From Escherichia phage vB_EcoM_phAPEC6, in the sequence record MK817115.1: 64,000 nt of DNA; one strand, written 5' to 3'. Numbering within the stretch: position 1 is the first letter of the stretch; the number at the start of each line of letters is the position of its first letter. The notes beneath the pieces are model-generated. The model was not told the DNA's origin, searched no databases, and saw nothing but the letters and a program-made list of their open reading frames with translations. The translations under genes and the position numbers were made by a program. Shown one piece after another: positions 41,546-54,176 of this stretch.

Positions 41546-41567
41546 TGTTGTTAGTACTGCAAAGTTA

Positions 41568-41963
41568 TTAGATAACCTGGCGGCGTTTACTGTATACTGT
41601 TACACGGTTTCCTTTACGGTCATGACGGATCTCTTTCTGGTTACGAATCAGTTCACTTGGACGCTTAAGGTTTGCCAGGTGATCCGCGTGAGTCCATGCA
41701 TTTGCGTTAACTGTAACTTCAATATCAGAACCTTTCAAAAAGTCATCTTGAGCGTTCAGTACTTCAGCCAGTTCTTGAGCTTGCTTTAGTTCTGCTTCAG
41801 TAAGTACAGGCTCAGGTGAATTCACAATATCAGAGATCTCTTTGAACTGTACCGCCCAGCGTTGTCCTTTCGGTGCATCTTTGCCCATGTCTTTAAATGT
41901 TTCACCTTCTTCACGAGCAACGATGCGAGCTTGTTCACGGGTAGCGAAGAATTTAGTAATCAT
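41568..41963 (-). CDS. hypothetical protein (FATREQAR paralog 1)
   Basis: paralog of 53585..53851 (KYFATREQARIAAR, DRKGNRVTVY); consensus TTGACA-17-TATAAT promoter; start by analogy at Met4. Confidence 0.55.
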   Translation of the reverse strand: MITKFFATREQARIVAREEGETFKDMGKDAPKGQRWAVQFKEISDIVNSPEPVLTEAELKQAQELAEVLNAQDDFLKGSDIEVTVNANAWTHADHLANLKRPSELIRNQKEIRHDRKGNRVTVYSKRRQVI

Positions 41964-42062
41964 GGTGTACATCCTATTAGTTAAGTTAATTAGTACTACA
42001 AGTTAGAGTCTATTATAAAGTACTATCTGGGCAATGTCAAATAGTACTTTAAATGGATTCTA

Positions 42063-42386
42063 TTACATGTCTTTTTTACGTTTTACATCGTAGTAACGAA
42101 CTGTAATTTCTTTGTTGATCTCATCCTCAATTCTGTGTAGTACTTTCTCTTTCGGGTTGAAACCTATTACAGTTTCTTTAATGATCTCCAAGCCCGTGTA
42201 TTCGCCTTGTGTACCGTAACCGTAAGTAAAGGTTTCATGTCCCAGGTCTTCCCAGCGGTCACCAATCAATGCAGACACGTAGCATGAGTGGTAAGTATTG
42301 CCGTGGCTATCAGTCCACCGATTAACTTTAATGTCAAAGGAAGTTACAATTTTCATTTCTACTTTCTGGGCAAGGATCATAGTCAT
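42063..42386 (-). CDS. hypothetical protein (YGYG/DVKRKKD paralog 1)
   Basis: paralog of 48255..48599; cassette upstream. Confidence 0.55.
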   Translation of the reverse strand: MTMILAQKVEMKIVTSFDIKVNRWTDSHGNTYHSCYVSALIGDRWEDLGHETFTYGYGTQGEYTGLEIIKETVIGFNPKEKVLHRIEDEINKEITVRYYDVKRKKDM

Positions 42387-42473
42387 TTTAATTTCTCTCT
42401 TTTTGTTAGGAAGGGAACCATTCCCCTCACTTGATGTAAACTATTATACAGTACTAAGATACTTTGTCAATAC
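42387..42473 (-). promoter_or_regulatory. promoter / 5' stem-loop / RBS cassette
   Basis: TTGACA-16-TATAAT and GGGAACCATTCCC hairpin. Confidence 0.6.
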
Positions 42474-42749
42474 TTAAGTATTGTAAATGTCGTGAATAGT
42501 GATAAAGTTTTTACGACCGTAAACATGTAAATCAGTATCAATGTAGTGCTTATCAAGTACATCCTCGACGCTTAAAGCCGTGTCGTGAATATCTTCATAG
42601 AATTGTGGATCTACAATCTTACTTAAATCATCCGGCGTTAACTTATCATTGAGCCATTGCACCGCCTGGATATCTGCATCACGTTTCCAGTCTTCCAGGT
42701 TAGTAGTCAGTACTTGCTCGATTTCGTTAGCTGTCAGTAGAATCCGCAT
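42474..42749 (-). CDS. hypothetical protein
   Basis: ORF-track ORF; cassette upstream. Confidence 0.55.
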   Translation of the reverse strand: MRILLTANEIEQVLTTNLEDWKRDADIQAVQWLNDKLTPDDLSKIVDPQFYEDIHDTALSVEDVLDKHYIDTDLHVYGRKNFITIHDIYNT

Positions 42750-42838
42750 TTTAATTTCTCTCTTTGTTAGGTGGGGAACTATTCCCCACTTGATGTAAAA
42801 TATTATACAGTACTAAAAACTATTGTCAAACTATTTTA

Positions 42839-43039
42839 TCAAATTGTTTCCCATTTCATGTTACCCGCTTTACGCTGTGAAACAGGAATAAACATGTTAT
42901 TAATGTTACTAATATAACCGACCTGTAAGTCACGCTGTGAACCATACGCCCGACTTGCTGCATTTTTAGCACCGCGTTCTGATTTATAAACGCCGCTGGA
43001 TACTGTAAAGCCTACTACACCGAAAGTAAAATGTTTCAT
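42839..43039 (-). CDS. hypothetical protein
   Basis: ORF-track ORF behind tandem promoters. Confidence 0.5.
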   Translation of the reverse strand: MKHFTFGVVGFTVSSGVYKSERGAKNAASRAYGSQRDLQVGYISNINNMFIPVSQRKAGNMKWETI

Positions 43040-43250
43040 TTTGTATTCCTCTTTGTGGTTGATGTAAGTATTATACTCGTTTAATTTCTATTGTCAAACT
43101 ATTTTATCAGGGGAGGTTTTCGTATGTCTTACTCCTGGACTACTTAACGGGGTTACTTATTTCGTTCCCCGTCCTGATGTAAAACATTATACTTGATTCT
43201 AAGTACAATGCAAGTACTTTTTAAAAATAGTTTTCAGTACTTGATAGTAC
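43040..43250 (-). promoter_or_regulatory. tandem promoters separated by ~80-nt structured leader element
   Basis: two -35/-10 pairs; between them ACGGGG..CCCCGT and CAGGAG..CTCCCCTG stems; element recurs near 49950 and 52910. Confidence 0.5.
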
Positions 43251-43356
43251 TAGCCACCAGCATATAATAGATACATTTATGCACCCTGTGGGTTAGATTG
43301 TTTCTATGCATATATAATAGCAAAGGGACTGACCGGAGTCAATCCCTTTTTTAAAT
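43245..43356 (+). ncRNA. conserved intergenic element, candidate small RNA with bidirectional terminator (copy 3)
   Basis: same core and terminator hairpin as copies 1 and 2. Confidence 0.3.
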
Positions 43357-43360
43357 CTTT

Positions 43361-43510
43361 TTAAACTTGTTTTGGGTTGCGATATGTGATAGCGTTCGGG
43401 TACATTTGTTTAATGTTATTCCATGCCTGGTTAACATTGTAACCACTTGATCGAATCAGTTGGTTACTTCCTACGCCCTGAAACACTACTTCGAATAAGA
43501 ATTCTTTCAT
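43361..43510 (-). CDS. small hypothetical protein (49 aa)
   Basis: hand-translated ORF, ATGA overlap with upstream gene; below track cutoff. Confidence 0.35.
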   Translation of the reverse strand: MKEFLFEVVFQGVGSNQLIRSSGYNVNQAWNNIKQMYPNAITYRNPKQV

Positions 43511-43677
43511 GCTGCAATCCCCTCTGATTTACCTTTACGCCAGGCGTTAGCCAGTTCATTACGTTGCCATACATCCAATGCAATGTATAGTTTAGCAGTA
43601 TCCCCTTTAGGGTATTCGCCAGTAGTGCCTAACCGATAAAACAGATCTTTCAGTACTGATAATTCTACTTGGATCAT
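43507..43677 (-). CDS. small hypothetical protein (56 aa)
   Basis: hand-translated ORF in operon. Confidence 0.35.
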   Translation of the reverse strand: MIQVELSVLKDLFYRLGTTGEYPKGDTAKLYIALDVWQRNELANAWRKGKSEGIAA

Positions 43678-43766
43678 TGTATTACTCCTGATTGTGTTAG
43701 TACTTCTACGATGGCATGAATGATCATAAGTACAGCTAACACAACAATCATCGGATTCATTTGCAT
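43674..43766 (-). CDS. small hydrophobic peptide (30 aa)
   Basis: MQMNPMIVVLAVLMIIHAIVEVL; AAGGAG RBS; overlapping stop/start with next ORF. Confidence 0.35.
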   Translation of the reverse strand: MQMNPMIVVLAVLMIIHAIVEVLTQSGVIQ

Positions 43767-43783
43767 AAGCTGTACTCCTTCTA

Positions 43784-43996
43784 TTAATCTTTCAGCCAAT
43801 GATCTTGAATGAATTTTTCACAGAATCCCTGTTTCATAGATTCTAACAGGCGTTCACGGTGAGCGGCGGCATATTGCTCAGTACTATGCGTTACGCCAGG
43901 TTGATAACGTGAAACACCGTCCGGTCCGATATATTGAACATCCCACGGTTTTTCGTTAGTATCAGACCATTTACGAACGATTAGTTGACCTTGCAT
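43784..43996 (-). CDS. hypothetical protein
   Basis: ORF-track ORF; cassette upstream. Confidence 0.55.
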   Translation of the reverse strand: MQGQLIVRKWSDTNEKPWDVQYIGPDGVSRYQPGVTHSTEQYAAAHRERLLESMKQGFCEKFIQDHWLKD

Positions 43997-44081
43997 GTTT
44001 CTTTCCTCTTAGTGGGGAGAATCATTTCTCCCCTTCATGTAAACTATTATACAGTACTATAATCTATTGTCCAGTACTTTT

Positions 44082-44270
44082 TTACAGTTTATGAATCAAT
44101 TCTTTATCTAAGCGATAGCGTACATTATTAATGGTAACAGCATTATTTTTAATGCTACGCTGTACTGGCCCACCAGCAATAACAAACGTTGCTTTATTAC
44201 CCCGAACAATGATAGCACTACCAGGATTGCCAAAATCATCTTGTACTAAAATACTTGATAAGTTTTCCAT
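44082..44270 (-). CDS. hypothetical protein
   Basis: start at Met3 behind AAGAGG RBS (track ORF to 44276). Confidence 0.5.
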   Translation of the reverse strand: MENLSSILVQDDFGNPGSAIIVRGNKATFVIAGGPVQRSIKNNAVTINNVRYRLDKELIHKL

Positions 44271-44348
44271 TTTCATTTCCTCTTAGTAGGGGAAGACGTT
44301 TCCCCTTGATGTAAGTACTATAACAGTACTGGAAACTAAATGCAAGTA

Positions 44349-44705
44349 CTACGATAAAATCATGATAGGATATTCACTATCGATCAGTACTTCAAATCCA
44401 AAACTTTCATACCATTCTTTAAGATTAAAGGCGTTATCTTCTCCCGTATCGCATTCTAAAATGATACAATCTGAATCATCGGCGGCATCAATAAAGGCGT
44501 TCATCAATTCCGTACCTTCACCATTACCCCGACTAGCAGGATCAACATAAAGAGAATCAATAAACGCTACACGGTCATAATCAAGATCCGGTGCAATGAT
44601 TCCACGTTTAACAAACCAGTACTGCAATTGTGCTACTTTGCCCTGTACTTGATAGCCAGTGATCTCGCCATTGTCAGTAGTACGCGTGGTATGTTGTATT
44701 CCCAT
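44349..44705 (-). CDS. GNAT-family N-acetyltransferase
   Basis: motif A-like RGNGEGTELMNAF; consensus TTGACA-16-TATAAT promoter and GAGGA RBS. Confidence 0.55.
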   Translation of the reverse strand: MGIQHTTRTTDNGEITGYQVQGKVAQLQYWFVKRGIIAPDLDYDRVAFIDSLYVDPASRGNGEGTELMNAFIDAADDSDCIILECDTGEDNAFNLKEWYESFGFEVLIDSEYPIMILS

Positions 44706-44768
44706 GATTTCTATCCTCAGTTAAGATATAAAATATTATACACTATCTTTCAGTACTGTCAATACTTT

Positions 44769-45026
44769 TTATCTCATAGATCTATGCCAACAATTACGCG
44801 GATCTCTTTTAAAAGTACTATCATGATCCTCCTGGCAAGTTATGCAATACTTACATCCCTTAACAGCCTGGCGGCGATTCTCAGGGATTTTATCGCCACA
44901 GTCGAGGCAATGTATCAGTGATTCTATTTGTGCGTTAATTTGCTTTCTAGCGTGGTTTACGGCGGCCTGAATCACTGCGTTAATCTCGTCTTGCTCGGCC
45001 CCGTCTTTCGCGAATCCTACAGCCAT
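44769..45026 (-). CDS. TraR/DksA-family C4 zinc-finger protein
   Basis: CLDC-x17-CITC with IPENRR between cysteines. Confidence 0.6.
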   Translation of the reverse strand: MAVGFAKDGAEQDEINAVIQAAVNHARKQINAQIESLIHCLDCGDKIPENRRQAVKGCKYCITCQEDHDSTFKRDPRNCWHRSMR

Positions 45027-45223
45027 TATTTTAACTTTTTTCTGTCATTGATTAATGCTTTCAGTACTATACTAATGATTTGCAATGATTCATCAATAAC
45101 TATAAAATTATTTTCTTTCATTAGATGATAGTTACCATTGATATTATATTCTAACGAGTACTGTTTACGTTTAATTTTTGATAATGTTTCTATTTGTTTT
45201 TGTACTGATTTCATGCTAATCAT
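45026..45223 (-). CDS. hypothetical protein
   Basis: ORF-track ORF; stop overlaps start of the zinc-finger gene. Confidence 0.45.
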   Translation of the reverse strand: MISMKSVQKQIETLSKIKRKQYSLEYNINGNYHLMKENNFIVIDESLQIISIVLKALINDRKKLK

Positions 45224-45328
45224 TGTTAAACGTCCTGTAACGCATTCTAACGAGATAAACGGTTTAGTACTGGCATTGTATAGGGTAATGGATTAAAGCC
45301 CACCAGCGTTAACCAGTGGGCTATAATC

Positions 45329-45472
45329 TTACATCTTGCGGATAATCTTAACAGTATCTTTCACCGATTTACCGTTTTGCTGACATTGTTCGATCATCGC
45401 GTATTGTTCTGCGGTCAGATCCTCGCCAGTTTTTGCCAGTACTGCATCGATGAATGAATCTAGTGCGATCAT
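45329..45472 (-). CDS. small hypothetical protein (47 aa)
   Basis: hand-translated ORF between cassette and terminator hairpin AGCCCAC..GTGGGCT. Confidence 0.4.
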   Translation of the reverse strand: MIALDSFIDAVLAKTGEDLTAEQYAMIEQCQQNGKSVKDTVKIIRKM

Positions 45473-45570
45473 TTTGTTTCTCTCTTAGGTTAAGTTAACT
45501 ACTGTTTATAAAACTTATTATACAGTACTATCAAACTATGTCAATATCTTTAATAGTACTGGTAATATAT

Positions 45571-45741
45571 TTTAGCGGTAGTCGTCGTATGCTTTATTCA
45601 CCTGGCGAATGTAACTTTCAAAGGCTTCGTCTACCGTTTCATACTCCCGAACATAATCACCATAGGAAACTACATACATCCCTTTTTGATCTTCAAACGT
45701 CATGATGATAGAATCCAGGCCGATGATTTCAGTTTTTGCGA
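45571..45741 (-). CDS. small hypothetical protein (56 aa)
   Basis: hand-translated ORF preceded by cassette. Confidence 0.4.
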
Positions 45742-45832
45742 TGATAGCCATTTTTAATTCCTTAGTAGTGTAGTTGATAAAACTTATTATACAGTACTAT
45801 CAAACTATGTCAATAGTACTGTGATAATATTT

Positions 45833-46045
45833 TTAGTTAATGATAGTCAGTGTAAAATTGTAATCCCCTGCCTGGTATAGTACTTTGTCGCCGAACGTAC
45901 CAACACGTTTCATATTGCAATAGATACCCATAACACTTTTTACATCTTTGATATTCCGAACGCCTGTGATATCCTTGTTGAAATTTTCATGATCAGAAAA
46001 TAAAACTTGTTTTGCATTTTTCAGTACAGTGCAGATATTAGCCAT
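45833..46045 (-). CDS. hypothetical protein
   Basis: ORF-track ORF; cassette upstream. Confidence 0.55.
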   Translation of the reverse strand: MANICTVLKNAKQVLFSDHENFNKDITGVRNIKDVKSVMGIYCNMKRVGTFGDKVLYQAGDYNFTLTIIN

Positions 46046-46138
46046 TTTGATTTCTCTTTGTTAGTGGGGAGAACTATTCTCCCCTTGATGTAACTTATTA
46101 TACAGTACTATAATCTATTGTCAAACTATTTTTTAATA
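46046..46138 (-). promoter_or_regulatory. promoter / 5' stem-loop / RBS cassette
   Basis: TTGACA variant, GGGGAGAACTATTCTCCCC hairpin, AAAGAGAAA RBS. Confidence 0.6.
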
Positions 46139-46480
46139 TTATTCAAAATCTTCTGGACCGGACTGATAATCATCTTCACCGTATGCACTTTCTAACTTCT
46201 CGCCAGTGTGATCATCAGTTAGTGAGTCATCCTCATAGTTCACGTCTACGCCCGTGATGTAAAACTGGCTATCGTCTGGATCATTGAAATTAATTTTCTG
46301 AATGTTTACAATAACGGTATTGATGCCCAGGACACCGCCATCAGCAGTTACAAAGTACTGATAGTTTTCACAACCGCCTGTATTGAAACCGTAATTAATT
46401 TCGGCCCGACCATCATTTAAACGCAGTGCCTGGGCGATGATTTCGTTTTCAAAGTTAGATTGAGCAATTGAGATAGTCAT
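46139..46480 (-). CDS. hypothetical acidic protein
   Basis: start at Met22 (MTISIAQ); track ORF begins at TTG inside leader. Confidence 0.55.
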   Translation of the reverse strand: MTISIAQSNFENEIIAQALRLNDGRAEINYGFNTGGCENYQYFVTADGGVLGINTVIVNIQKINFNDPDDSQFYITGVDVNYEDDSLTDDHTGEKLESAYGEDDYQSGPEDFE

Positions 46481-46564
46481 GATTCGTTTCCTTATTACCA
46501 GGGGAAACCGTTTCCCCTCTCGATGTAAAACATTATACGCCAATTGAGATAGTTTGCAAGTACT

Positions 46565-46690
46565 TTTTAAAAATAGTTTTCAGTACTCAATACTTATATA
46601 ATAGATACACTTATGCACCCGGTGGGCTAGTGAGCTATCTCTCAATGAATATATAATAGCAAAATGGCTGACCGAAGTCAACCACTTTTT
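46565..46690 (+). ncRNA. conserved intergenic element, candidate small RNA with bidirectional terminator (copy 4)
   Basis: same architecture, hairpin variant GGCTGACCGAAGTCAACC. Confidence 0.3.
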
Positions 46691-46694
46691 TCAT

Positions 46695-46829
46695 TTATTT
46701 TTTAGCTTTCAGTACTGCCGCCTTTCGCGTCATGCCTTGCTTAATGTACTCCTTTACTTTCGCTTTACGTGCTTTCGCTTTATCTGCTTTCGTTTTAGGA
46801 GTACTGTAAATTAAACCGTTAGGATTCAT
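46695..46829 (-). CDS. small lysine-rich hypothetical protein (44 aa)
   Basis: hand-translated ORF. Confidence 0.35.
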   Translation of the reverse strand: MNPNGLIYSTPKTKADKAKARKAKVKEYIKQGMTRKAAVLKAKK

Positions 46830-46919
46830 TTAAATCACCATAAAGAATAGATAGGTTACTAACAATGCCGCGATCAATGCACCGATCACCGCTGAACTGT
46901 AATAAGCTAATGATTTCAT
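46830..46919 (-). CDS. small hydrophobic peptide (29 aa)
   Basis: MKSLAYYSSAVIGALIAALLVTYLFFMVI. Confidence 0.3.
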   Translation of the reverse strand: MKSLAYYSSAVIGALIAALLVTYLFFMVI

Positions 46920-47068
46920 TTTTTAGCCTGGAAGTAATGTTTAATTTGTGCGGCGGTCAGTGCACAATTACGCAGGAAGTTTTCTGTATAACTGCGGCGA
47001 GTACTGAAAGAGAATTGACCTTTGCCGTTACCGATAGTAACATCAAACCGAGCGTTGTATTGTTTCAT
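46916..47068 (-). CDS. hypothetical protein
   Basis: start at Met11 (MKQYNARF) after cassette; track ORF to 47098. Confidence 0.5.
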   Translation of the reverse strand: MKQYNARFDVTIGNGKGQFSFSTRRSYTENFLRNCALTAAQIKHYFQAKK

Positions 47069-47149
47069 TTTGTTTCTCCTGTTATTGGGGAGAATCATTT
47101 CTCCCCTTCATGTAAAACATTATACAGTACTAAAAACTAATTGCAAGTA
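47069..47149 (-). promoter_or_regulatory. promoter / 5' stem-loop / RBS cassette
   Basis: TTGCAA -35, TATAAT, GGGGAGAATCATTTCTCCCC hairpin. Confidence 0.6.
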
Positions 47150-47296
47150 CTATTTTTTAGATTTACGCAAACTTTCTACCATCTCAGGAGTAAGGCCAGG
47201 CGGGTAGGAAACCACTTCATCAACGAAACGTAAAGGGAATACCCCAGCGAAAGGTGAACATGCTTTCTTAGTATTACTCTTTTTTGATGCTTTCAT
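47150..47296 (-). CDS. small hypothetical protein (48 aa)
   Basis: hand-translated ORF with cassette upstream. Confidence 0.35.
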   Translation of the reverse strand: MKASKKSNTKKACSPFAGVFPLRFVDEVVSYPPGLTPEMVESLRKSKK

Positions 47297-47365
47297 TTCA
47301 TATTCCTTAATTAGTGGAGAGAATCATTTCTCCCCTTCATGTAAAACATTATACGCGTTTAAAAA

Positions 47366-47575
47366 CTAATTGCAAGTATTATTTGAAAGTAAATGCTCAT
47401 ACGCTGCATTAACTACGTTTTCAATAACCGACTGTACAGAAAGATCCCCCACGTCCTGGCTATAGTAGAAATCGCTTACAGTACTATCATCGTATGCAAA
47501 TACTTTACCAGGATCTGCATCAATCACATACATATTAACCTTTAAGATGTCGATCTTATCCTGTACAGTAAGCAT
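47366..47575 (-). CDS. hypothetical protein
   Basis: ORF-track ORF; AAGG RBS. Confidence 0.5.
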   Translation of the reverse strand: MLTVQDKIDILKVNMYVIDADPGKVFAYDDSTVSDFYYSQDVGDLSVQSVIENVVNAAYEHLLSNNTCN

Positions 47576-47580
47576 ATTAA

Positions 47581-47853
47581 TTAACCTTTTAAGTACTGGC
47601 TTAAGTAGTCTTGTTGATCTTCGGTGATTGCAGCCATCTTCCCTAGTACTGGATTGATGATATAATCCCCTGTAACGTCCTGTAACGCATTCTCAGGCGG
47701 TTTAACGGCTGGGGTAGCCATAGCCATTGCCTGGACTTGTTCGACGCTGTAACGCTCATAAAGGCGGCATTCTTCCGGTGTTAACATAGCATCAGTACGC
47801 TTCATCGGTTTAATGATGCTTTCGATCTCATTCAGTACTTGATTAACGTTCAT
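47581..47853 (-). CDS. hypothetical protein
   Basis: ORF-track ORF. Confidence 0.5.
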   Translation of the reverse strand: MNVNQVLNEIESIIKPMKRTDAMLTPEECRLYERYSVEQVQAMAMATPAVKPPENALQDVTGDYIINPVLGKMAAITEDQQDYLSQYLKG

Positions 47854-47904: not shown

Positions 47905-48174
47905 TTAATAGGTGTATGGTTGACGCTCAAACAATGAATAGACGTTATACGCCCCGCTTATGGGCTTCGCTGGTAAATCAATTTTATATTGTTCACGCTT
48001 AAAGATAATAAAACGGCAATTGTTTTTAACATCAAAATTGATTGAACGTTCCAGGAGTTTACCATCGTGCACAAATACAAGATAACCGCTCGCTACTTGT
48101 TTTGTAGTACTGGTTGCAACCATAGACCGCCGAACATGTGTACCTGCATCAATTAAAGTACTGATATTTTTCAT
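47905..48174 (-). CDS. hypothetical protein
   Basis: ORF-track ORF. Confidence 0.5.
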   Translation of the reverse strand: MKNISTLIDAGTHVRRSMVATSTTKQVASGYLVFVHDGKLLERSINFDVKNNCRFIIFKREQYKIDLPAKPISGAYNVYSLFERQPYTY

Positions 48175-48254
48175 TATACTATCTTCTTAAGTTAATTTAA
48201 TTTCTTTCCCCTATGCAGACACTATATCAAAGTATCTGCATAAAGTAAAGCTAA

Positions 48255-48599
48255 TTAAAGATCTTTTTTGCGTTTAACATCAGTTACCGAACTGTAAACA
48301 GTGATATTATTGTCACGGCAAAAACGGGAAAGATAAGAACCGCGTAAAAACTCTTTATCTTCCATATTAATAACCTTGCTAAATTCTTCCATTGCTACAG
48401 TGTCAAAGTGATCCCCGTATCCATATTGGAACGGCACGTTTACTACTTCAATAAAATTACCATCAATTTCTACGTCTACACTTAAAGAGAAATAAGTGTT
48501 ACCATATGAAGCCTGGAACCAACGCCGAGCGGCAATATGTACAACTTCAACAGAAGACAGGTTGATATTTTGTTTTGCGATAGTGTTGATATTAGCCAT
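48255..48599 (-). CDS. hypothetical protein (YGYG/DVKRKKD paralog 2)
   Basis: paralog of 42063..42386 (GNTY, YGYG, C-terminal DVKRKKD). Confidence 0.55.
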   Translation of the reverse strand: MANINTIAKQNINLSSVEVVHIAARRWFQASYGNTYFSLSVDVEIDGNFIEVVNVPFQYGYGDHFDTVAMEEFSKVINMEDKEFLRGSYLSRFCRDNNITVYSSVTDVKRKKDL

Positions 48600-48680
48600 T
48601 TTAATTTCCTCTTAGTTGTCTTGATAAAATCTATTATGCCAGTACTATCAAACTATGTCAATAGTACTGTGATAATATTT

Positions 48681-48824
48681 TTACTTACTTTTTGCTTTCT
48701 TTGCTGCTTCCACCTGGTCGGCCCATTCTTTACCCCATACTTGTAAATTATAATGGTACTGGCAAAGTGCAACGCCCCGCTTTAAACCAGTAATAGATTT
48801 TTTACCACATTGACAAGTTTTCAT
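48681..48824 (-). CDS. small Cys-rich protein (47 aa), possible zinc ribbon
   Basis: CQCG...CQYH spacing; cassette upstream; hand-translated. Confidence 0.35.
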   Translation of the reverse strand: MKTCQCGKKSITGLKRGVALCQYHYNLQVWGKEWADQVEAAKKAKSK

Positions 48825-48910
48825 ATTAGTTTCCTCATTATCAGGGAGAACCATTTCTCCCCTTGATGTAATGTATTATACTTTATCTGATTTACTTTGC
48901 AAGTACTTTT

Positions 48911-49138
48911 TTAATTTAATTCATCCAGGCAAAGGATACGCTCAACGCCCAAATCAGTTAAACTAATCGACGGCACTTGATAGGTTTCAATGTATGCTAC
49001 ACTTGCCCACTGACCGAACTCATTAACGGCCCATTTATCCATTGCAAAATGCAATTCCGCACCTTTCTTATTAGTAATTACAGCAACAGTAGAAGAATTG
49101 CCAGTAGTACCAGTTACGCGAGTGATTACGATAGCCAT
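48911..49138 (-). CDS. hypothetical protein
   Basis: start at Met20 (MAIVITRV); track ORF to 49195 reads through leader. Confidence 0.5.
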   Translation of the reverse strand: MAIVITRVTGTTGNSSTVAVITNKKGAELHFAMDKWAVNEFGQWASVAYIETYQVPSISLTDLGVERILCLDELN

Positions 49139-49422
49139 TGTTTTAATTCCTTTGATTTGGAAGGAGAACCGTTTCCCCCTCTCGATGTAAAACATTATAC
49201 GCTAATCTCTTAATCGTGCAAGTACTTTTTATTACTTTTTGCAAAATACTTTAAACGCACTCAATCGCGTTCTTACAGCCTTAACGCCACCAGCTAGGGC
49301 AATGCATCAGATAATCAGTTTAATGCGTTAGAATCGATTCTAGGCGGTGCTGGTGGCCTGGTAAACGTTAAACACAAAAAAGCCCACTTATGCAGTGGGC
49401 TAGTGATTCAGTACTTTAATTG

Positions 49423-49905
49423 TTATGCTTCCACTTTGCGATGAGCTTCGATCCATTCCTCGCGAGTCATACCGCTGGAGTTAATCGCATCCAGTACTAC
49501 CGCAATGCAGTTACCACGCACCGGAATCAGATATTCTTCCCCGTTGTCCAGTACTACCGCTACACGTTTTTGAATCCATTTTTTAGGCTTAGATTCCGGC
49601 TTATCTTCCCCATACTTAACCGCCAGGGCTTTTTGTGCCATCTCTGTAACTACTTCCAGATCCAATCCAACTACTGCCGCCTGAATACTTTCAATTGTTG
49701 CTTGTAGTTCTGCTTCACGGGCCGCCTTTGCCGCTTCAATTTCTGCCGCTTTATTTGCTTGTAGTTCTTTCGCAGTACTATAAGCGATGTTAAAATTATT
49801 GCGTACCGCTTTCATGGTATCGTTATCCAGATCAGCCAGGATCTCTGCCGCGACGTTAGTTTCATTTGCTACCAGTGCTTTGATGAATGATTTTACATTA
49901 GCCAT
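49423..49905 (-). CDS. hypothetical Ala-rich coiled-coil protein
   Basis: start at Met6 behind GAGGA RBS; tandem promoters with structured leader upstream. Confidence 0.5.
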   Translation of the reverse strand: MANVKSFIKALVANETNVAAEILADLDNDTMKAVRNNFNIAYSTAKELQANKAAEIEAAKAAREAELQATIESIQAAVVGLDLEVVTEMAQKALAVKYGEDKPESKPKKWIQKRVAVVLDNGEEYLIPVRGNCIAVVLDAINSSGMTREEWIEAHRKVEA

Positions 49906-50103
49906 TTTATAAATCCTCAATTAAAGTTTAGTTTACGTTGGTTAGTGTATCAAAGTTTTCTCGACGTGTCCAGTTTTTCGTTCGACTTACTGGCGGTCTA
50001 CTTAGTGCTCCCCGTCTTGATGTAATATATTCTACGCCTTTTTGCGGTAATGTCAACTATTTTTTAAAACTATTTTCAAAGTATCTCAGTACTACGATAC
50101 TAC

Positions 50104-50132
50104 AAAAACAAAAAAAGCCCACCAGGTGGGCT
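50104..50132 (-). terminator. rho-independent terminator
   Basis: AGCCCACC..GGTGGGCT hairpin followed by T-run on minus strand. Confidence 0.6.
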
Positions 50133-50138
50133 ATGTAC

Positions 50139-50369
50139 TTAATCAGTAATTAAAACATTAAACACTTTATCATTTAACGTTATGGGTGTACTGCTACCAG
50201 GCTTGAGATCAGTTAGTACACCTGCAATAGCTTTTTCATTGGCGACCTTTCCAGTGTCCAACAGTACTACAGTACTGATAAGATTAACGCTCGTTTCAAT
50301 ATCATAATGCACGGCGTTAAGTAGTTGTGTAGTACTGCTTTCGTTAAGTAAAACAATTCGCTTAGTCAT
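50139..50369 (-). CDS. hypothetical protein
   Basis: ORF-track ORF. Confidence 0.5.
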   Translation of the reverse strand: MTKRIVLLNESSTTQLLNAVHYDIETSVNLISTVVLLDTGKVANEKAIAGVLTDLKPGSSTPITLNDKVFNVLITD

Positions 50370-50390
50370 GATGTTACCCCGTAGTATCTA

Positions 50391-50690
50391 TCAACGGCAA
50401 TTAATAACGCCAGTATGAGTTACTTTCTCAGTATCCATAACAGTGACCGAACCGCGTTTAGTACTTGCATCGTAATAAATTGTCGTGCTACCGTTTTCGT
50501 CTTCTTCATGGAACGGGCCGTTTTTAAATGCTTCCGGCTGGATCTCTAAATCCTTTAAAACAATCTCGCCAGTACTTTCATCGGTCATTGCAACAGTGCA
50601 CTGAATGAATTTTTCACTACTTACATCTAATGACGCATTAACAGCGAAAGAGGAAACAGATAAAGCCAGGGCGATGATTGCAATTTTCAT
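50391..50690 (-). CDS. secreted/periplasmic hypothetical protein
   Basis: classical signal peptide MKIAIIALALSVSSFAVNA with AXA site; two Cys; cassette upstream. Confidence 0.55.
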   Translation of the reverse strand: MKIAIIALALSVSSFAVNASLDVSSEKFIQCTVAMTDESTGEIVLKDLEIQPEAFKNGPFHEEDENGSTTIYYDASTKRGSVTVMDTEKVTHTGVINCR

Positions 50691-50775
50691 TTGATTATCC
50701 TTAGTTACCAGGGGGAACCGCTCCCCCCTTGCGATGTAAAATATTATACAGTACTAAAAACTAATTGCAAGTACT
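50691..50775 (-). promoter_or_regulatory. promoter / 5' stem-loop / RBS cassette
   Basis: TTGCAA, TATAAT, GGGGGAACCGCTCCCCCC hairpin. Confidence 0.6.
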
Positions 50776-51012
50776 TTATGATTTTTTATAAAACATTTCG
50801 GCAGTGATATTTTTACCCGTTGGTTGTACTTTATCCAGAATTTTTTGATGTCCAGGGCGACCAAATGAATAAGATCCGTAAACCGTAAACCAGTAGTTAC
50901 CCTCAGTGTTTACATGTACAGCACAATAGGGAACGCCCCGCGATTCATCACTAGTAAAGTGTGATACCGTACCCGTTACATTCGCAGACGTTGATTTGAT
51001 TTGTTCGACCAT
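50776..51012 (-). CDS. hypothetical protein
   Basis: ORF-track ORF; cassette upstream. Confidence 0.5.
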   Translation of the reverse strand: MVEQIKSTSANVTGTVSHFTSDESRGVPYCAVHVNTEGNYWFTVYGSYSFGRPGHQKILDKVQPTGKNITAEMFYKKS

Positions 51013-51120
51013 TTTCTTATTCCTTAGTTACCAGGGGAACCGCTCCCCCTATGCAAAACATTATACGCGTTTAAAAACTAATAGCAAGTATTTTAATAAA
51101 AAGTATTTGGAAAATAATTG

Positions 51121-51149
51121 TTGACAAGTGCATCCAGTACTGGCATAAT
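51121..51149 (+). promoter_or_regulatory. plus-strand sigma70-like promoter
   Basis: TTGACA-17-CATAAT; followed by CCCACCGGGTGC-containing ~100 nt and a terminator hairpin. Confidence 0.45.
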
Positions 51150-51262
51150 TACTACATCAAGACGAAACAGTCACTAACCCACCGGGTGCCGAGATCCGTC
51201 TATTAAATGATTCAGTACTAAAAAAAGAAAGGGGATCAATTGATCCCCTCGTTGTTATTTTG
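51150..51262 (+). ncRNA. candidate small RNA
   Basis: bounded by promoter above and GGGGATCAATTGATCCCC hairpin plus T-run; no ORF. Confidence 0.3.
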
Positions 51263-51476
51263 TAAGGTATAAACAGAAGTCACCTTTATTTGCTACGCCG
51301 CCAGTGTAACGCGAGGAATAGTTAGAAACGTCCTGGACTTCTGCTATTACCAGGGTATCATCATTCAATTCGTCGCAGAAGCAAACGGCTGGATCTTGTA
51401 CGCCGATATTGTCGGCATGTTCCCGCATAGATTTAACCAGTGCTTCAAGTTGGGAAAGAGTAGTGATATTAGCCAT
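51255..51476 (-). CDS. hypothetical protein
   Basis: start at Met11 (MANITTLSQ); track ORF to 51506. Confidence 0.5.
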   Translation of the reverse strand: MANITTLSQLEALVKSMREHADNIGVQDPAVCFCDELNDDTLVIAEVQDVSNYSSRYTGGVANKGDFCLYLTK

Positions 51477-51559
51477 TTTATTTTCCTCATTACCAGGGAG
51501 AACCATTTCTCCCCTTGATGTAAACTATTATACAGTACTAAAAACTAATTGCAAGTACT

Positions 51560-51841
51560 TTAACTGTAAGATCCGCAACGGTCGCAGTAGTGCCCCTCGT
51601 CATCGTCAACGAATTGACCAACGAAATTATCTACTTTCGCTTTCAGGTTATTATAATCGTTTTCTACTTCATTTAAACGCTTCTGGTAGTATTCCAGTGC
51701 TTTAAGATATGCCGCATCAGCAGTTTTCTCCTGCATAGCTAAATTCATGCCACGCGTTTCATCGTACAGCCAAAAACCATCGGTGCACTGGCTAATAGAT
51801 AATGACTTGCTTAGTACTGTATAGTTAATTACTTTACTCAT
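51560..51841 (-). CDS. hypothetical protein
   Basis: start at Met28 behind GAGGG RBS; track ORF to 51922 reads through GGCGGGG..CCCGCC hairpin. Confidence 0.5.
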   Translation of the reverse strand: MSKVINYTVLSKSLSISQCTDGFWLYDETRGMNLAMQEKTADAAYLKALEYYQKRLNEVENDYNNLKAKVDNFVGQFVDDDEGHYCDRCGSYS

Positions 51842-51899
51842 TAGATAAACCCTCAATAAAGGCGGGAACCATTCCCCGCCATTGTTACAGTACTGAATA

Positions 51900-52139
51900 T
51901 TACATTCCAACCATTGCAGCACGGATCGCAGTAGTGCTATACTTAAAGCCGTCCGGCGTTGTAGTAGTACCGTTGGCTTTTAATCTGCGGTACATGCATT
52001 CCGCTGCAATATCTTTAGTTCTACTTTGTGCGATACAACTTTGTGCAAGCCGATACAATGACTCACCGTTATTAATCCATAAGGAAACATTCCAATGAGT
52101 TTTGTTTTTGTGCCCGTTGTAAGTTTTAGTACTAGCCAT
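51900..52139 (-). CDS. hypothetical protein (THWNVSLWINN paralog 1)
   Basis: paralog of 53937..54176 (GHKNKTHWNVSLWINN, TPDGFKYSTTAIRAAMVGM). Confidence 0.55.
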   Translation of the reverse strand: MASTKTYNGHKNKTHWNVSLWINNGESLYRLAQSCIAQSRTKDIAAECMYRRLKANGTTTTPDGFKYSTTAIRAAMVGM

Positions 52140-52231
52140 TTTTTTTAATCCTCGTTTGAGCGGGGAACCACTCCCCGCCTCGATATAAAGTATTATACGC
52201 TTTTAAACTTAGTTTGCAAGTACTTTTTAAA
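52140..52231 (-). promoter_or_regulatory. promoter / 5' stem-loop / RBS cassette
   Basis: TTGCAA, TATAAT, GCGGGGAACCACTCCCCGC hairpin. Confidence 0.6.
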
Positions 52232-52843
52232 TTAATATTCGATTGATTCTACTACGCCATCAATAACATTGAATTGATATTCGTTACCCTCAATCAGTGC
52301 TGTAATGTTTTCAGTAGTGAATTGATCCTCATATGCATTCTCTAAATCACGGTACAACTTGCGGGATAATTCACGAATAGTTTCAGTGAGTAGTTCCTCA
52401 AGCTCATTAACTAACGTTTCTTGTTTTGCGGTTAAATCAGTGTAAGCCGATTCAATGTACCCGCTTACAGTGTTTTCATGCGAGTAGTGGGAGTGAGAAC
52501 GCTTTACACTCATCGCCAAATCATCTTCATTCAGCAGGTGACGGATTGAGCGATACTTAGTTAATGCTCTTACCTTGCGTAAAAACTTCACTGCGTCAAC
52601 GTGGTCAGTACTGATTGATGCACCGTCACCCTGGGACCAAAAACCACTGAATTGTATTTCAGCGTCATTAATGCCATATTCCGGCAATACTGTTTCTTTA
52701 TAGTGTTCAATTTCACTTTCAGAAAAATAATCGTCGTTTGAGTTTTTTTCACGTTCCCGAACCAGTTCGATAGCTGACGTTTTTTGTTCTGCGTTCAATT
52801 CAGAAAAATCCATAACATAAGTAGTAGTAGTGATAGTTTTCAT
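52232..52843 (-). CDS. hypothetical acidic protein (203 aa)
   Basis: ORF-track ORF, strongly Asp/Glu-rich; tandem promoters with structured leader upstream. Confidence 0.55.
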   Translation of the reverse strand: MKTITTTTYVMDFSELNAEQKTSAIELVREREKNSNDDYFSESEIEHYKETVLPEYGINDAEIQFSGFWSQGDGASISTDHVDAVKFLRKVRALTKYRSIRHLLNEDDLAMSVKRSHSHYSHENTVSGYIESAYTDLTAKQETLVNELEELLTETIRELSRKLYRDLENAYEDQFTTENITALIEGNEYQFNVIDGVVESIEY

Positions 52844-53060
52844 TTTGTAACCCTCATTCAGTAGTTTATGTAAGTATTATACGCTTTTAAAAACAATTGT
52901 CAAACTATTTTATCAGGGGAGTTTTTCGTGTGCCTTACTCCTGGGCTACTTAACGGGAAGTTACTTATTTCGTTCCCCGTCCTGATGTAAAACATTATAC
53001 GCCTTTAAACATAGTTTGCAAGTACTTTTTAAAAATAGTTTTCAGTACTGAATAGTAAAA
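52844..53060 (-). promoter_or_regulatory. tandem promoters separated by ~80-nt structured leader element (copy 2)
   Basis: near-identical to 43085-43170 element with compensatory stem changes. Confidence 0.5.
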
Positions 53061-53065
53061 AGGTA

Positions 53066-53094
53066 TTGACAGCACTATCCAGTACTGGTATAAT
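53066..53094 (+). promoter_or_regulatory. plus-strand consensus sigma70 promoter
   Basis: TTGACA-17-TATAAT; downstream CCCACCGGGTGC and GATACACTCCCGCACCC elements, no ORF. Confidence 0.45.
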
Positions 53095-53268
53095 ATACCC
53101 CATGACAACAGCTAACCCACCGGGTGCACAATTGTAACTGTACTAAACTACTTTTTCTATAGATACACTCCCGCACCCTATGGGCTACGGCTTATCTGCC
53201 AATGAATACATTATGCCAGTACTGACAAAATAAGTCAATACCGGCAATTGTAAAGATTTGTAAACTAC

Positions 53269-53499
53269 TTATACTGCAATCGCGTCCAGGCTATAATAAT
53301 AATAAGTGCCGTATTGGTGTACTTTATTACCTTTTATTTCAGTACTGAATGAATCCGAACGATTGGCATATGATGTTAATTTATAGTACTTTACTTTACT
53401 AATACGTTGCCATACACCGCAGATCCGCTGTAAGTAAGTAGTTTTATTTGTGGTAGTATCTTTTACGGCTTTCAATTCGATCATATACATAGTGGTCAT
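53269..53499 (-). CDS. hypothetical protein
   Basis: ORF-track ORF; AAGGAG RBS and cassette upstream. Confidence 0.55.
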   Translation of the reverse strand: MTTMYMIELKAVKDTTTNKTTYLQRICGVWQRISKVKYYKLTSYANRSDSFSTEIKGNKVHQYGTYYYYSLDAIAV

Positions 53500-53584
53500 T
53501 TTATTACTCCTTGCTTTAGTGGGGAACTATTCCCCACCTGATATAAAGTATTATACGCGTTTAAACTTAGTTTGCAAGTACTTT

Positions 53585-53851
53585 TTATTCAAGTACTGCG
53601 ATCTTTTTAATACGGTACACGGTCACGCGGTTGCCCTTTCGGTCGAGCTTTATTTCTACCACTCGACGCGATACACTATCAGGACTTTTCAACGCCGCTA
53701 ACCAGTACTGTAATGATCTGGCGGTACTACGCTTTACAATGGCCCAACGTTTACCACGTTCCGATTGTACGCCCATATCTTTAAACGTTGCCCCGTCCTG
53801 GCGTGCGGCGATCCGAGCTTGTTCACGCGTCGCAAAATACTTAATATTCAT
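53585..53851 (-). CDS. hypothetical protein (FATREQAR paralog 2)
   Basis: start at Met13 (MNIKYFATREQ); promoter region also paralogous to that of 41568..41963. Confidence 0.55.
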   Translation of the reverse strand: MNIKYFATREQARIAARQDGATFKDMGVQSERGKRWAIVKRSTARSLQYWLAALKSPDSVSRRVVEIKLDRKGNRVTVYRIKKIAVLE

Positions 53852-53936
53852 GCTGTTGCCCTTATCGTTGGTGTATGAATAAAACACTATTATAAAGTAC
53901 TATCGCAAAAAATGATAGTACTTTAAATAAATTCTA

Positions 53937-54176
53937 TTACATTCCAACCATTGCAGCACGGATCGCAGTAGTGCTATATTTGAATCCGTCCGGTGTTTTA
54001 TCTTGTCCAGTCTGTTCTAAAAATAACATCATATGACGGGCCGCATCATTACGATTAGTATTGGCGGCAATAAAGTCCTGGGCCAACCGGTATAATGATT
54101 CATCGTTATTAATCCAAAGGCTTACATTCCAATGAGTTTTGTTTTTGTGACCTAAGAACATTTTTGATTTAGCCAT
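53937..54176 (-). CDS. hypothetical protein (THWNVSLWINN paralog 2)
   Basis: start at Met14 (MAKSKMFLGHKNKTHW) by analogy with 51900..52139. Confidence 0.55.
   Translation of the reverse strand: MAKSKMFLGHKNKTHWNVSLWINNDESLYRLAQDFIAANTNRNDAARHMMLFLEQTGQDKTPDGFKYSTTAIRAAMVGM

What the first reader, a model, noticed from the sequence alone, without database searches (positions are those of the whole stretch)
41568..54176. Duplicated single-gene modules including their promoters
Three paralog pairs lie within the early-type region: 41568..41963 and 53585..53851 (KYFATREQARIAAR, DRKGNRVTVY), 51900..52139 and 53937..54176 (GHKNKTHWNVSLWINN, TPDGFKYSTTAIRAAMVGM), 42063..42386 and 48255..48599 (GNTY, YGYG, DVKRKKD). 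For the first pair the upstream promoter DNA (GTAATAGAAT..ATTTAAAGTACTAT..AGTACTTTATAATAG) is also duplicated, but the TTGACA -35 is degraded in the second copy. Whole transcription units are being copied and then diverge in regulation.
Basis: seen in the sequence. Interest (0 to 1): 0.5.

Follow-up and report, generated by a model that had tools for sequence, protein, structure and literature searches.

The report
Shuffled early-gene cassettes in jumbo phage
The three gene pairs are real but old relatives lying in the early region of a giant E. coli phage, where about a hundred-base promoter-plus-hairpin cassettes in front of most small genes let genes be swapped, lost and replaced, a mechanism already described in T4-type phages.

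Summary
All three pairs are true homologues (BLASTP E 3e-20, 4e-38, 2e-10) and are the only paralogues in 36-56 kb. The 66 nt upstream of pair 1 occurs at exactly these two sites, and the second copy lacks TTGACA. The window is an Asteriusvirus (PBECO4/121Q-type, RaK2-like jumbo coliphage). Positions 36-56.7 kb are its early region, annotated as direct terminal repeat in a relative. It carries 33 sigma70-type promoters, 22 of them followed by a GC stem-loop, SD and ATG at fixed spacing. This is the anatomy of PeSL cassettes of T4-type phages. Nothing is recently copied: the longest internal DNA repeat is 349 nt at 75%, and synonymous sites are saturated. Pair 1 is an old duplication present in every Asteriusvirus checked. 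Its upstream block is a conserved ~20-bp hairpin with a variable loop. Pairs 2 and 3 are divergent alleles. 2B and 3B are closer (83-96% aa) to Phapecoctavirus genes than to 2A and 3A (67%, 30%). Their slots hold other alleles or unrelated genes in relatives. 25 of 41 synteny breaks fall in cassettes. Verdict: a new member of a known kind, of modest interest. A side finding remains unexplained: the palindrome AGTACT is about 13-fold over-represented.

The parts
35800..56700 (-). Early region of small genes with repeated promoter/stem-loop cassettes. It corresponds to the direct terminal repeat of Asteriusvirus genomes; the boundaries are approximate.
   Evidence: There are 33 sigma70-like promoters on the - strand in 36-56.5 kb, against 5 elsewhere on that strand. 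31 of 55 genes have their own promoter within 130 nt. The annotated DTR 1..21525 of vB_Ec-M-J contains the 1B and 1A homologues. The G17 record starts at window 36293.
41568..41963 (-). Gene 1A (131 aa, phrog_8127, function unknown)
   Evidence: 84-99% identical in other Asteriusvirus
41964..42062 (-). Upstream element of 1A: an extended imperfect hairpin (arms TAGAATccATTTAAAGTACTAT / ATAGTACTTTATAATAGacTCTA). TTGACA (42040-42035) lies in the loop and TATAAT (42017-42012) in the 3' arm.
   Evidence: RNA fold -22 kcal/mol, z -3.4
41526..41544 (-). Intrinsic terminator after 1A (GGCGGGTTCAGTTCCCGCC + T7)
53585..53851 (-). Gene 1B (88 aa, phrog_8127), paralogue of 1A with an internal deletion
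   Evidence: 89-99% identical in other Asteriusvirus
53852..53936 (-). Upstream element of 1B: the same hairpin arms and TATAAT (53894-53889). The loop is CATTTTTTGCG, without a -35.
   Evidence: RNA fold -17.1 kcal/mol, z -3.2
51900..52139 (-). Gene 2A (79 aa, DUF7249 / phrog_871), a divergent allele limited to some Asteriusvirus
   Evidence: its slot holds an unrelated gene in G17
52140..52224 (-). Promoter/stem-loop cassette of 2A (TTGCAA-16-TATAAT, GGCGGGGAGTGGTTCCCCGCT, SD)
51861..51880 (-). Stem-loop directly after 2A (GGCGGGGAATGGTTCCCGCC), right-hand junction of the module swap against G17
53937..54176 (-). Gene 2B (79 aa, DUF7249), the allele type shared with Phapecoctavirus and rV5-like phages
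   Evidence: 88-95% aa identity to homologues on 135-155 kb contigs; 96% aa and roughly 90% nt identity to L006
54177..54260 (-). Promoter/stem-loop cassette of 2B. It probably also drives 1B, because no terminator lies between the two genes.
42063..42386 (-). Gene 3A (107 aa, phrog_6246), an allele found only in Asteriusvirus
42387..42481 (-). Promoter/stem-loop cassette of 3A; 98% identical over 51 nt to the cassette at 39560-39610 of an unrelated gene
   Evidence: (family D7)
48255..48599 (-). Gene 3B (114 aa, phrog_6246), a Phapecoctavirus/phi92-type allele sitting in a polymorphic slot
48600..48684 (-). Promoter of 3B, of the AGTACT-hairpin class (CAGTACTATTGACATAGTTTGATAGTACTGGCATAAT), with no GC stem-loop
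42839..43057 (-). Example of a cassette-bounded indel. This gene, together with the adjacent cassette at 42750-42838 that precedes the next gene downstream, is missing from SHEFM2K. The junction lies in the repeated TATAATAnTTACATCAA.

Best explanation
The pairs are old paralogues inside the hyperplastic early region of an Asteriusvirus jumbo phage. This region is the ~20-kb direct terminal repeat.

How the region is built. It holds about 55 small genes. Most are preceded by a regulatory cassette of roughly 100 nt: an AT-rich/AGTACT stretch, a sigma70-type promoter, a hairpin, an SD and the ATG. This is the design called PeSL in T4-type phages.

Proposed mechanism. The many similar cassettes, together with conserved gene ends, give the phage recombination machinery short patches of homology. 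Single-gene modules are therefore inserted, deleted, replaced by unrelated genes, or replaced by divergent alleles.

Origin of each pair.
- Pair 1 arose by one ancient duplication of a gene plus its upstream hairpin, in or before the ancestor of the genus.
- Pairs 2 and 3 are divergent alleles held in different slots. 2B and 3B belong to an allele pool shared with Phapecoctavirus, phi92-like and rV5-like coliphages.
- 2A and 2B have since exchanged their 3' ends by gene conversion.

The pair 1 upstream block stays about 90% identical because the hairpin is functional. Its -35 lies in the loop and is dispensable in 1B, which is probably read through from the 2B promoter.

Shown here: the homology, the cassette anatomy, its copy number, the breakpoint positions, the allele distributions and the codon saturation.
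Inferred: promoter activity and early timing, recombination as the cause, the direction of transfer, and the role of the hairpins.
For: Identity of the genome: 94.5% identity over 97% of 41-55 kb to phage SHEFM2K, and matches to PBECO4, 121Q and G17. Taxonomy is Asteriusvirus.

Cassettes:
- Repeat families of 15-22 copies.
- 33 promoters on the gene strand; 22 have a GC stem-loop starting 9-14 nt after the -10.
- The tool scan independently finds TTGACA or TTGCAA, a 16-nt spacer, and TATAAT.
- The -10 to ATG distance is 53-62 nt in the stem-loop class.
- 5 of 7 stem pairs show compensatory changes across 22 copies.

Shuffling:
- 41 distinct synteny breaks against 5 relatives. 25 lie in cassette intervals that cover 18.5% of the region (binomial p 2e-9). 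Only 7 lie inside ORFs, which cover 67%.
- A cassette-to-cassette deletion in SHEFM2K.
- The 2A slot holds the unrelated gene G17_00048 between the same stem-loops.
- The 3B slot holds a third allele in G17, PBECO4 and SD-6, with identical flanks.
- The 2B slot holds a third allele in TH47.

Age and origin:
- The longest internal repeat is 349 nt at 75%.
- Same-codon use in pair 1 is 12 of 41.
- The pair 1 family has 2 copies in every Asteriusvirus record listed and 1 in RaK2, K64-1, Hallingskeid and fHe-Yen9-03.
- 2B is 88-95% identical to homologues from 135-155 kb phages but 67% to 2A.
- 3B is 72-83% identical to Phapecoctavirus, phi92-like and rV5-like genes but 30% to 3A.
- A Phapecoctavirus-like locus carries 3B, then 2B, then homologues of window genes 48911-49138 and 45833-46045, each behind its own cassette.

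Gene conversion: the last 44 nt of 2A and 2B are identical, whereas the Phapecoctavirus gene differs at 4 positions. In the last 19 codons, 13 of 17 conserved residues use the same codon, against 1 of 7 in the middle.

Hairpin: the arms are conserved in 5 relatives, with three different loops at 1B. Folds are -17 to -22 kcal/mol, z -3.2 to -3.6.

Precedent: PeSL papers PMC2839356 and PMC4122927.
Against: - No transcription or recombination data exist for this phage. Promoter activity and early timing rest on consensus matches.
- Breaks in viable genomes will be intergenic whatever the mechanism. Within non-ORF space the enrichment for cassettes is modest: 22 of 34 breaks against a 47% share of that space.
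- Between genera, homology for 2B covers the coding sequence and only loosely the cassette. Cassettes may therefore not be the crossover site in inter-genus transfer.
- The pair 2 tree rests on 79 residues and neighbour joining. A fast-evolving in-lineage duplicate could mimic a foreign allele.
- Most cassette stem-loops lack a T-run, so they are not canonical terminators as proposed for PeSLs.
- 1A is closer to the single RaK2 and Hallingskeid copies (44%) than to 1B (36%). The timing of the pair 1 duplication is therefore uncertain.
Confidence: 0.7

Rival explanations
1. One reading: whole single-gene transcription units, promoter included, are currently being duplicated within this genome, and the copies then diverge in regulation through loss of the -35.
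For: Pair 1 shares gene plus 66 nt of upstream DNA found nowhere else in the window. Only one copy has TTGACA. Pair 2 also shares a near-identical cassette. The genome tolerates much paralogy, with 24-, 11-, 8- and 5-member families elsewhere in the window.
Against: No repeat longer than 100 nt exceeds 88% identity in 36-56.5 kb. Synonymous sites are saturated in pairs 1 and 3. Both pair 1 copies and the -35 difference are fixed in five relatives, so this is an old and stable state. 2B and 3B are nearer to genes of another genus than to their partners. Pair 3 has unrelated upstream DNA. The pair 2 cassette type also precedes unrelated genes.
Confidence: 0.12
2. Pure xenology: none of the pairs arose by duplication in this lineage. 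Each member was acquired separately from the shared coliphage gene pool.
For: 2B and 3B alleles circulate in Phapecoctavirus, phi92-like and rV5-like phages. Slots are polymorphic. 1A is closer to the RaK2 and Hallingskeid orthologues than to 1B.
Against: In the phage collection the pair 1 family is found only in RaK2-like jumbo phages. There are two copies in every Asteriusvirus and one elsewhere. The two copies share a specific upstream block that includes the ATG-TAA end of a neighbouring gene, which points to a segmental copy. 3A and 2A were found only in Asteriusvirus.
Confidence: 0.2
3. The pairs are kept because the copies have different targets: diversifying selection on host-takeover or anti-defence proteins. 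The variable middle of pair 2 and the indel in pair 1 would be the functional difference. Cassette recombination would be only the delivery route.
For: Pair 2 has conserved ends and a hypervariable centre: 8 of 28 residues identical in the middle against 19 of 19 at the C-terminus. At least three alleles exist for each of families 2 and 3 within the genus. The genes lie in a sigma70-driven early region typical of host-takeover genes.
Confidence: 0.3
4. The similarities are chance or low-complexity matches.
For: None. Pair 3 is the weakest, at 30% identity.
Against: Pairwise E-values run from 2e-10 to 4e-38. Each pair shares a PHROG at E 1e-25 to 1e-43.
Confidence: 0.01

Closest known systems
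PeSL (promoter-early stem-loop) cassettes of T4-type phages RB49/phi1, T4/PST and KVP40/nt-1 (Arbiol et al. 2010, PMC2839356; Comeau et al. 2014, PMC4122927)
   Same: An AT-rich stretch, a sigma70-consensus promoter, a GGGG..CCCC stem-loop, SD and ATG, in many copies in a hyperplastic region of small ORFs. Insertions, deletions and replacements between close relatives are bounded by the cassettes. Crossovers fall between the -10 and the ATG, as in the RB49 mini-circles. Subclasses exist with the hairpin downstream of the -10 or around the -35.
   Different: The host phage is a RaK2-like jumbo phage, not a T4-like one. The cassettes lie in the direct terminal repeat. The cassette sequences are different and carry the AGTACT palindrome. 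Most stem-loops sit at the 5' end of the predicted transcript and lack a T-run. Terminator activity and mini-circles are untested.
Pre-early region in the terminal repeats of phage T5 (own knowledge) and RpoD-like promoters clustered over short ORFs and the terminal repeat of RaK2-like phage CBB (PMC5259590)
   Same: Small genes of unknown function with strong host-type promoters, located in or next to a roughly 20-kb direct terminal repeat and presumed to act in host takeover.
   Different: No homology to T5 genes was shown, and two-step DNA transfer is unknown here. The CBB paper reports promoters but neither cassette-mediated shuffling nor the hairpins.
[quoted passage not shown]
   Same: Multiple diverged copies of small genes of unknown function within one genome.
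   Different: Those reports treat paralogues as in-genome duplications. Here two of the three pairs look like alleles exchanged with another phage genus.
Integron gene cassettes and phage morons (own knowledge)
   Same: Single-gene units with their own expression signals, added or exchanged at intergenic sites.
   Different: No integrase or attC-like site is evident. The exchange appears to rely on general homologous recombination between repeated regulatory DNA.

Membership tests
PeSL regulatory cassettes | Promoter matching the E. coli sigma70 consensus | tested here: met
   33 sites with TTGACA or TTGCAA, a 16-17 nt spacer and TATAAT on the gene strand. Activity was not measured.
PeSL regulatory cassettes | [quoted passage not shown] | tested here: met
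   Sequences such as TTTTTAAAAAGTAC and GATAAAATAGT precede the -35 in the cassette listing.
PeSL regulatory cassettes | Adjacent stable stem-loop, often polyG/polyC | tested here: met
   22 cassettes have a GGGGA..TCCCC-type hairpin 9-14 nt after the -10. 5 of 7 stem pairs show compensatory changes. A second class has AGTACT-armed hairpins around the -35.
PeSL regulatory cassettes | SD and start codon of the downstream gene at the 3' end of the cassette | tested here: met
   The -10 to ATG distance is 53-62 nt in the stem-loop class.
PeSL regulatory cassettes | Concentrated in a hyperplastic region of small variable ORFs | tested here: met
   33 of 38 gene-strand promoters lie in 36-56.5 kb. 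Relatives cover only 39-58% of this region, apart from SHEFM2K at 97%.
PeSL regulatory cassettes | Indels and replacements between close relatives bounded by cassettes | tested here: met
   25 of 41 breaks lie in cassettes, p 2e-9.
PeSL regulatory cassettes | Stem-loops act as transcription terminators or attenuators | tested here: inconclusive
   Only a few hairpins are followed by a T-run. Function needs an experiment.
PeSL regulatory cassettes | Formation of cassette-bounded mini-circles during infection | not testable with these tools
   Needs inverse PCR or long reads of infected cells or virions.
PeSL regulatory cassettes | Host genome is a T4-like myovirus, and the cassette is sequence-homologous to those of RB49/phi1 | tested here: not met
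   Taxonomy is Asteriusvirus. No sequence comparison with RB49 cassettes was made. I therefore file it as PeSL-like, not as a member by descent.
Recent segmental duplication of a transcription unit | High nucleotide identity over the whole unit, including synonymous sites | tested here: not met
   The best internal repeat is 349 nt at 75%. Same-codon fractions are 12/41 for pair 1 and 11/33 for pair 3.
Recent segmental duplication of a transcription unit | Each copy is the other's closest relative | tested here: not met
   2B and 3B are closer to Phapecoctavirus genes. 1A is closer to the RaK2 and Hallingskeid copies than to 1B.
Pfam DUF7249 (PF23907) | Score above the curated gathering threshold | tested here: met
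   2A scores 50.7 bits and 2B 45.4 bits against a cut-off of 27.
Direct-terminal-repeat early region (T5/CBB type) | The region lies within the virion DNA's direct terminal repeat | tested here: inconclusive
   This is inferred by homology. The annotated DTR 1..21525 of vB_Ec-M-J holds the 1B and 1A homologues. Records of 366-384 kb carry the genes at 4 places. The termini of this window's own genome are unknown.

The most novel reading that the evidence does not exclude
The AGTACT palindrome sits in both promoter classes and in the arms of the pair 1 hairpin, and it is about 13-fold over-represented across most of the genome. It could be the recognition site of a protein encoded by RaK2-like phages. 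If so, the cassettes would be more than passive homology patches. They would be targets of a dedicated system: a regulator, nickase, recombinase or self-marker that controls early transcription and/or drives exchange of gene cassettes in this jumbo-phage group.
Probability: 0.1. Interest if true: 0.75.

Novelty: new member of a known kind. Interest (0 to 1): 0.3.

Why it matters
It extends cassette-mediated modular shuffling, so far described for T4-type phages, to the RaK2-like jumbo phages and to their terminal-repeat early region. It also shows that small early genes pass between unrelated coliphage genera: Asteriusvirus, Phapecoctavirus, and phi92- and rV5-like phages. In practice, 'paralogues' in jumbo-phage annotations cannot be assumed to be in-genome duplications, and the cassettes mark the variable and probably dispensable gene slots. 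This matters for engineering or comparing these therapy-candidate phages. As a discovery it is incremental.

Tried and rejected
- Ungapped cassette comparison for pair 1 gave only 42% because of the 3-nt loop indel. The gapped alignment and the pattern search were used instead.
- G17_00048, which is the same length as 1B, was tested as a possible third pair 1 member. It is unrelated, E 0.15.
- Rfam search of 36-57 kb at E <= 0.1 found nothing.
- Literature searches found no description of PeSLs in Asteriusvirus or RaK2-like phages, and none of AGTACT enrichment.
- I tested whether AGTACT sites inside genes are more conserved than neighbouring coding positions. They are not.
- I tested whether the AGTACT-free block at 21.2-28.6 kb is a recent foreign insert. 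It is not: it is 94-98% identical in most Asteriusvirus.
- Not used: the metagenome, viral-contig and genome-contig scans, the representative-protein search, and covariance models. The annotated phage collection gave enough relatives.

Full report
**What the window is.**
Megablast of 41-55 kb against the phage collection gives 184 records. The best is Escherichia phage SHEFM2K (94.5% identity, 97% coverage), followed by TH47, SP27, G17, PBECO4 and 121Q, all genomes of about 350 kb. Their taxonomy is Asteriusvirus, the E. coli branch of the RaK2-like jumbo myoviruses. Nearly all genes from 1 to 56 kb are on the minus strand.

**Check of the observation.**
The three pairs are homologous:
- Pair 1: 36% identity, E 3e-20, with a 45-residue gap.
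- Pair 2: 67% identity, E 4e-38.
- Pair 3: 30% identity, E 2e-10.

Each pair falls in one PHROG, and pair 2 is Pfam DUF7249. The SHEFM2K annotation assigns the same PHROGs. An all-against-all BLASTP of 182 ORFs shows these are the only paralogues in 36-56 kb. Large tandem families lie elsewhere in the window.

The upstream DNA quoted for pair 1 is present at both sites and nowhere else. It is about 90% identical outside a short central stretch. The first copy has a perfect TTGACA-17-TATAAT. The second has no -35.

The region is packed with a repeated regulatory cassette, with families of 15-22 copies. On the gene strand I count 33 promoters of the form TTGACA or TTGCAA, a 16-17 nt spacer, then TATAAT, between 36 and 56.5 kb. 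There are five in the rest of the window. The tool's own scan agrees.

In 22 of them a GC-rich hairpin of the type GGGGAGAAnnnTTCTCCCC begins 9-14 nt after the -10. An SD and the ATG follow, and the -10 to ATG distance is 53-62 nt. Across the 22 copies, 5 of 7 stem pairs show compensatory changes. A second promoter class has an AT-rich hairpin with AGTACT in both arms around the -35. In all, 31 of 55 genes have their own promoter.

This is the anatomy of PeSLs (promoter-early stem-loops) described for T4-type phages: an AT-rich stretch, a sigma70 promoter, a GGGG..CCCC hairpin in one of several positions, and an SD (PMC2839356, PMC4122927). I found no paper describing them in Asteriusvirus or RaK2-like phages. 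The CBB paper notes RpoD-like promoters clustered over short early ORFs and in the terminal repeat (PMC5259590).

In phage vB_Ec-M-J the annotated direct terminal repeat 1..21525 contains the 1B and 1A homologues. The G17 record starts at window 36293. Window positions ~35.8-56.7 kb therefore correspond to the terminal repeat.

**Are units being copied now?**
No.
- A self-comparison of 36-56.5 kb finds nothing longer than 349 nt (pair 2, 75%) and nothing over 88% identity beyond about 100 nt. Apart from the two DNA-level repeats of pairs 2 and 1, the listed repeats are non-coding cassettes.
- In pair 1, only 12 of 41 conserved degenerate residues use the same codon. In pair 3 the figure is 11 of 33.

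**Pair 1.**
The family occurs only in RaK2-like jumbo phages in the collection. There are two places in every Asteriusvirus record listed (four in records that include both terminal repeats). There is one place in RaK2, K64-1, Erwinia phage Hallingskeid and Yersinia phage fHe-Yen9-03. This fits one old duplication.

The shared DNA begins at ATG-TAA, the last codon and stop of the upstream gene. That gene is 3A in one copy and 2B in the other. GGAATGTAATA is the native end of family 2 genes, including in the Phapecoctavirus-like locus. A segment spanning the end of a family 2 gene, the intergenic element and gene 1 was therefore copied.

The 66-nt block is an extended imperfect hairpin of about 20 bp (-17 to -22 kcal/mol, z -3.2 to -3.6). 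In five relatives the arms and the TATAAT are conserved while the loop varies:
- TTGACATTGCCCAG or TTGACATTACACAG at 1A;
- CATTTTTTGCG, CATTTTTTTGCG or TGCACGGTG at 1B.

Since synonymous sites are saturated, the 90% identity must reflect constraint on the hairpin. The missing -35 at 1B is a fixed state across the genus. No terminator lies between 2B and 1B, so 1B is probably co-transcribed with 2B. 1A has its own promoter and is followed by a canonical terminator. What the hairpin does is not known. Attenuator, RNase III-type processing site and protein-binding site are all guesses.

**Pair 2.**
2B is 88-95% identical at the protein level to homologues on 135-155 kb contigs (phiWec179, UP17, A73, LTH01) and about 90% to those on 350-kb contigs. 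2A is 67% identical to 2B and 59-71% to those homologues, and it forms a small clade of its own. At the DNA level the 2B module is 82-86% identical in Phapecoctavirus genomes.

The slots are polymorphic:
- In G17 the 2A slot holds an unrelated 88-aa gene between the same stem-loops.
- In TH47 the 2B slot holds a third allele.

The 2A and 2B cassettes are similar (rank 11 of 561). However, each is about as close to cassettes of unrelated genes at 53555 and 54693. The last 44 nt of 2A and 2B are identical, while the Phapecoctavirus gene differs at four positions. Same-codon use is 13 of 17 at the 3' end and 1 of 7 in the middle. That pattern indicates gene conversion between the two copies within this lineage.

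**Pair 3.**
3A is found only in Asteriusvirus. The window's 3B is at least 90% identical in only eight Asteriusvirus records. It is 72-83% identical to genes of about 150 Phapecoctavirus, phi92-like and rV5-like phages.

G17, PBECO4 and SD-6_S16 carry a third allele in the same slot, 33-38% identical to both 3A and 3B. The flanks are identical between the window and G17: the promoter hairpin upstream, and the last eight codons plus 3' DNA downstream. This is allele replacement by recombination in shared flanks. The upstream regions of 3A and 3B are unrelated.

**Shuffling in general.**
Against five relatives there are 41 distinct breaks of collinearity in 20 kb. 25 fall in cassette intervals covering 18.5% of the sequence (p 2e-9). 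Seven fall inside ORFs covering 67%.

A caveat applies. Selection alone would keep breaks out of genes, and within non-ORF space the enrichment is modest (22 of 34 against a 47% share).

A clean example is the gene at 42839-43039. Together with the next cassette it is absent from SHEFM2K, and the junction lies in the repeated TATAATAnTTACATCAA between the -10 and the ATG. This is where crossovers were mapped in RB49 mini-circles.

A Phapecoctavirus-like locus carries 3B, 2B and homologues of two other window genes in a different order, each behind its own promoter/stem-loop cassette.

**Verdict.**
The region is best read as a PeSL-like cassette system in the early terminal-repeat region of a jumbo phage. 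The pairs comprise one ancient duplicate and two sets of divergent alleles, some shared across phage genera. This is a new member of a known kind and of modest interest.

**Side finding.**
AGTACT occurs 271 times against 18.5 expected and is the most over-represented hexamer family.
- Inside ORFs there are 190 copies. Synonymous-codon shuffling gives 62 +/- 6.6, and codon-order shuffling gives 23 +/- 4.6. The copies occur in all three frames.
- It is equally abundant in the RaK2 and Hallingskeid loci but absent from the Phapecoctavirus-like locus, whose equivalent hairpin arms read ATACTAT/ATAGTAT.
- Two blocks, 21.2-28.6 kb and 31.5-36.3 kb, have none, although the first was checked and is conserved in the genus.
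- Individual coding sites are not specially conserved.
- No explanation was found.

Noticed in passing
whole window; none in 21200-28600 and 31500-36300: The palindrome AGTACT (often CAGTACTG) occurs 271 times against about 20 expected. In ORFs there are 190 copies, against 62 under synonymous-codon shuffling and 23 under codon-order shuffling, in all three frames. It is also abundant in the RaK2 and Erwinia phage Hallingskeid loci but not in a Phapecoctavirus-like locus. Two blocks lack it completely. No explanation and no literature were found.
   Followed up: partly
window 37560-37800, 39830-40070, 43130-43375, 46480-46715, 52940-53270 (- strand): A five-copy non-coding element of about 200 nt. 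It comprises a bidirectional-looking hairpin (AAAAAGGGATTGACTCCGGTCAGTCCCTTT) overlapping a TTGACT-17-TATTAT promoter, a conserved AGCCCACnGGGTGC..GTGTATC stretch, then a standard cassette promoter. It could be tandem promoters or a small RNA. There is no Rfam match.
   Followed up: partly
window 55462-55560, within the gene-poor stretch 54900-56600: About 12 tandem copies of an 8-nt unit (TAGCCGTC), lying where GC skew changes sign and near the inferred end of the terminal repeat. This is a candidate iteron/origin or packaging-related site.
   Followed up: no
window 28477-36195; also 5392-29696, 10288-19557, 56632-60425, 60957-63320: Large tandem paralogue arrays outside the finding. There is a 24-member family of 65-105 aa proteins, 11- and 8-member families of roughly 110-190 aa proteins, a 5-member family, and a pair of 380-aa genes on the + strand.
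   Followed up: no
L006 (Escherichia phage MirsaeidiM_Esher1) 430-1660 vs window 45833-46045, 48255-48599, 48911-49138, 53937-54176: At least four small early genes of this jumbo phage have homologues in a 150-kb Phapecoctavirus-like phage. They are arranged in a different order, each behind its own promoter/stem-loop cassette. This indicates a gene pool shared across genera.
   Followed up: partly
window ~35800-56700: The whole early region matches the annotated 21.5-kb direct terminal repeat of vB_Ec-M-J and the start of the G17 record. These genes are therefore probably present twice per virion genome.
   Followed up: partly
window 48585-48599, 46031-46045, 51462-51476, 49891-49905 (gene starts, - strand): Several unrelated small genes begin with the same codons (ATGGCTAATATC..., giving MANI or MANV). 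The repeated cassette seems to extend a few codons into the genes (family D20).
   Followed up: no
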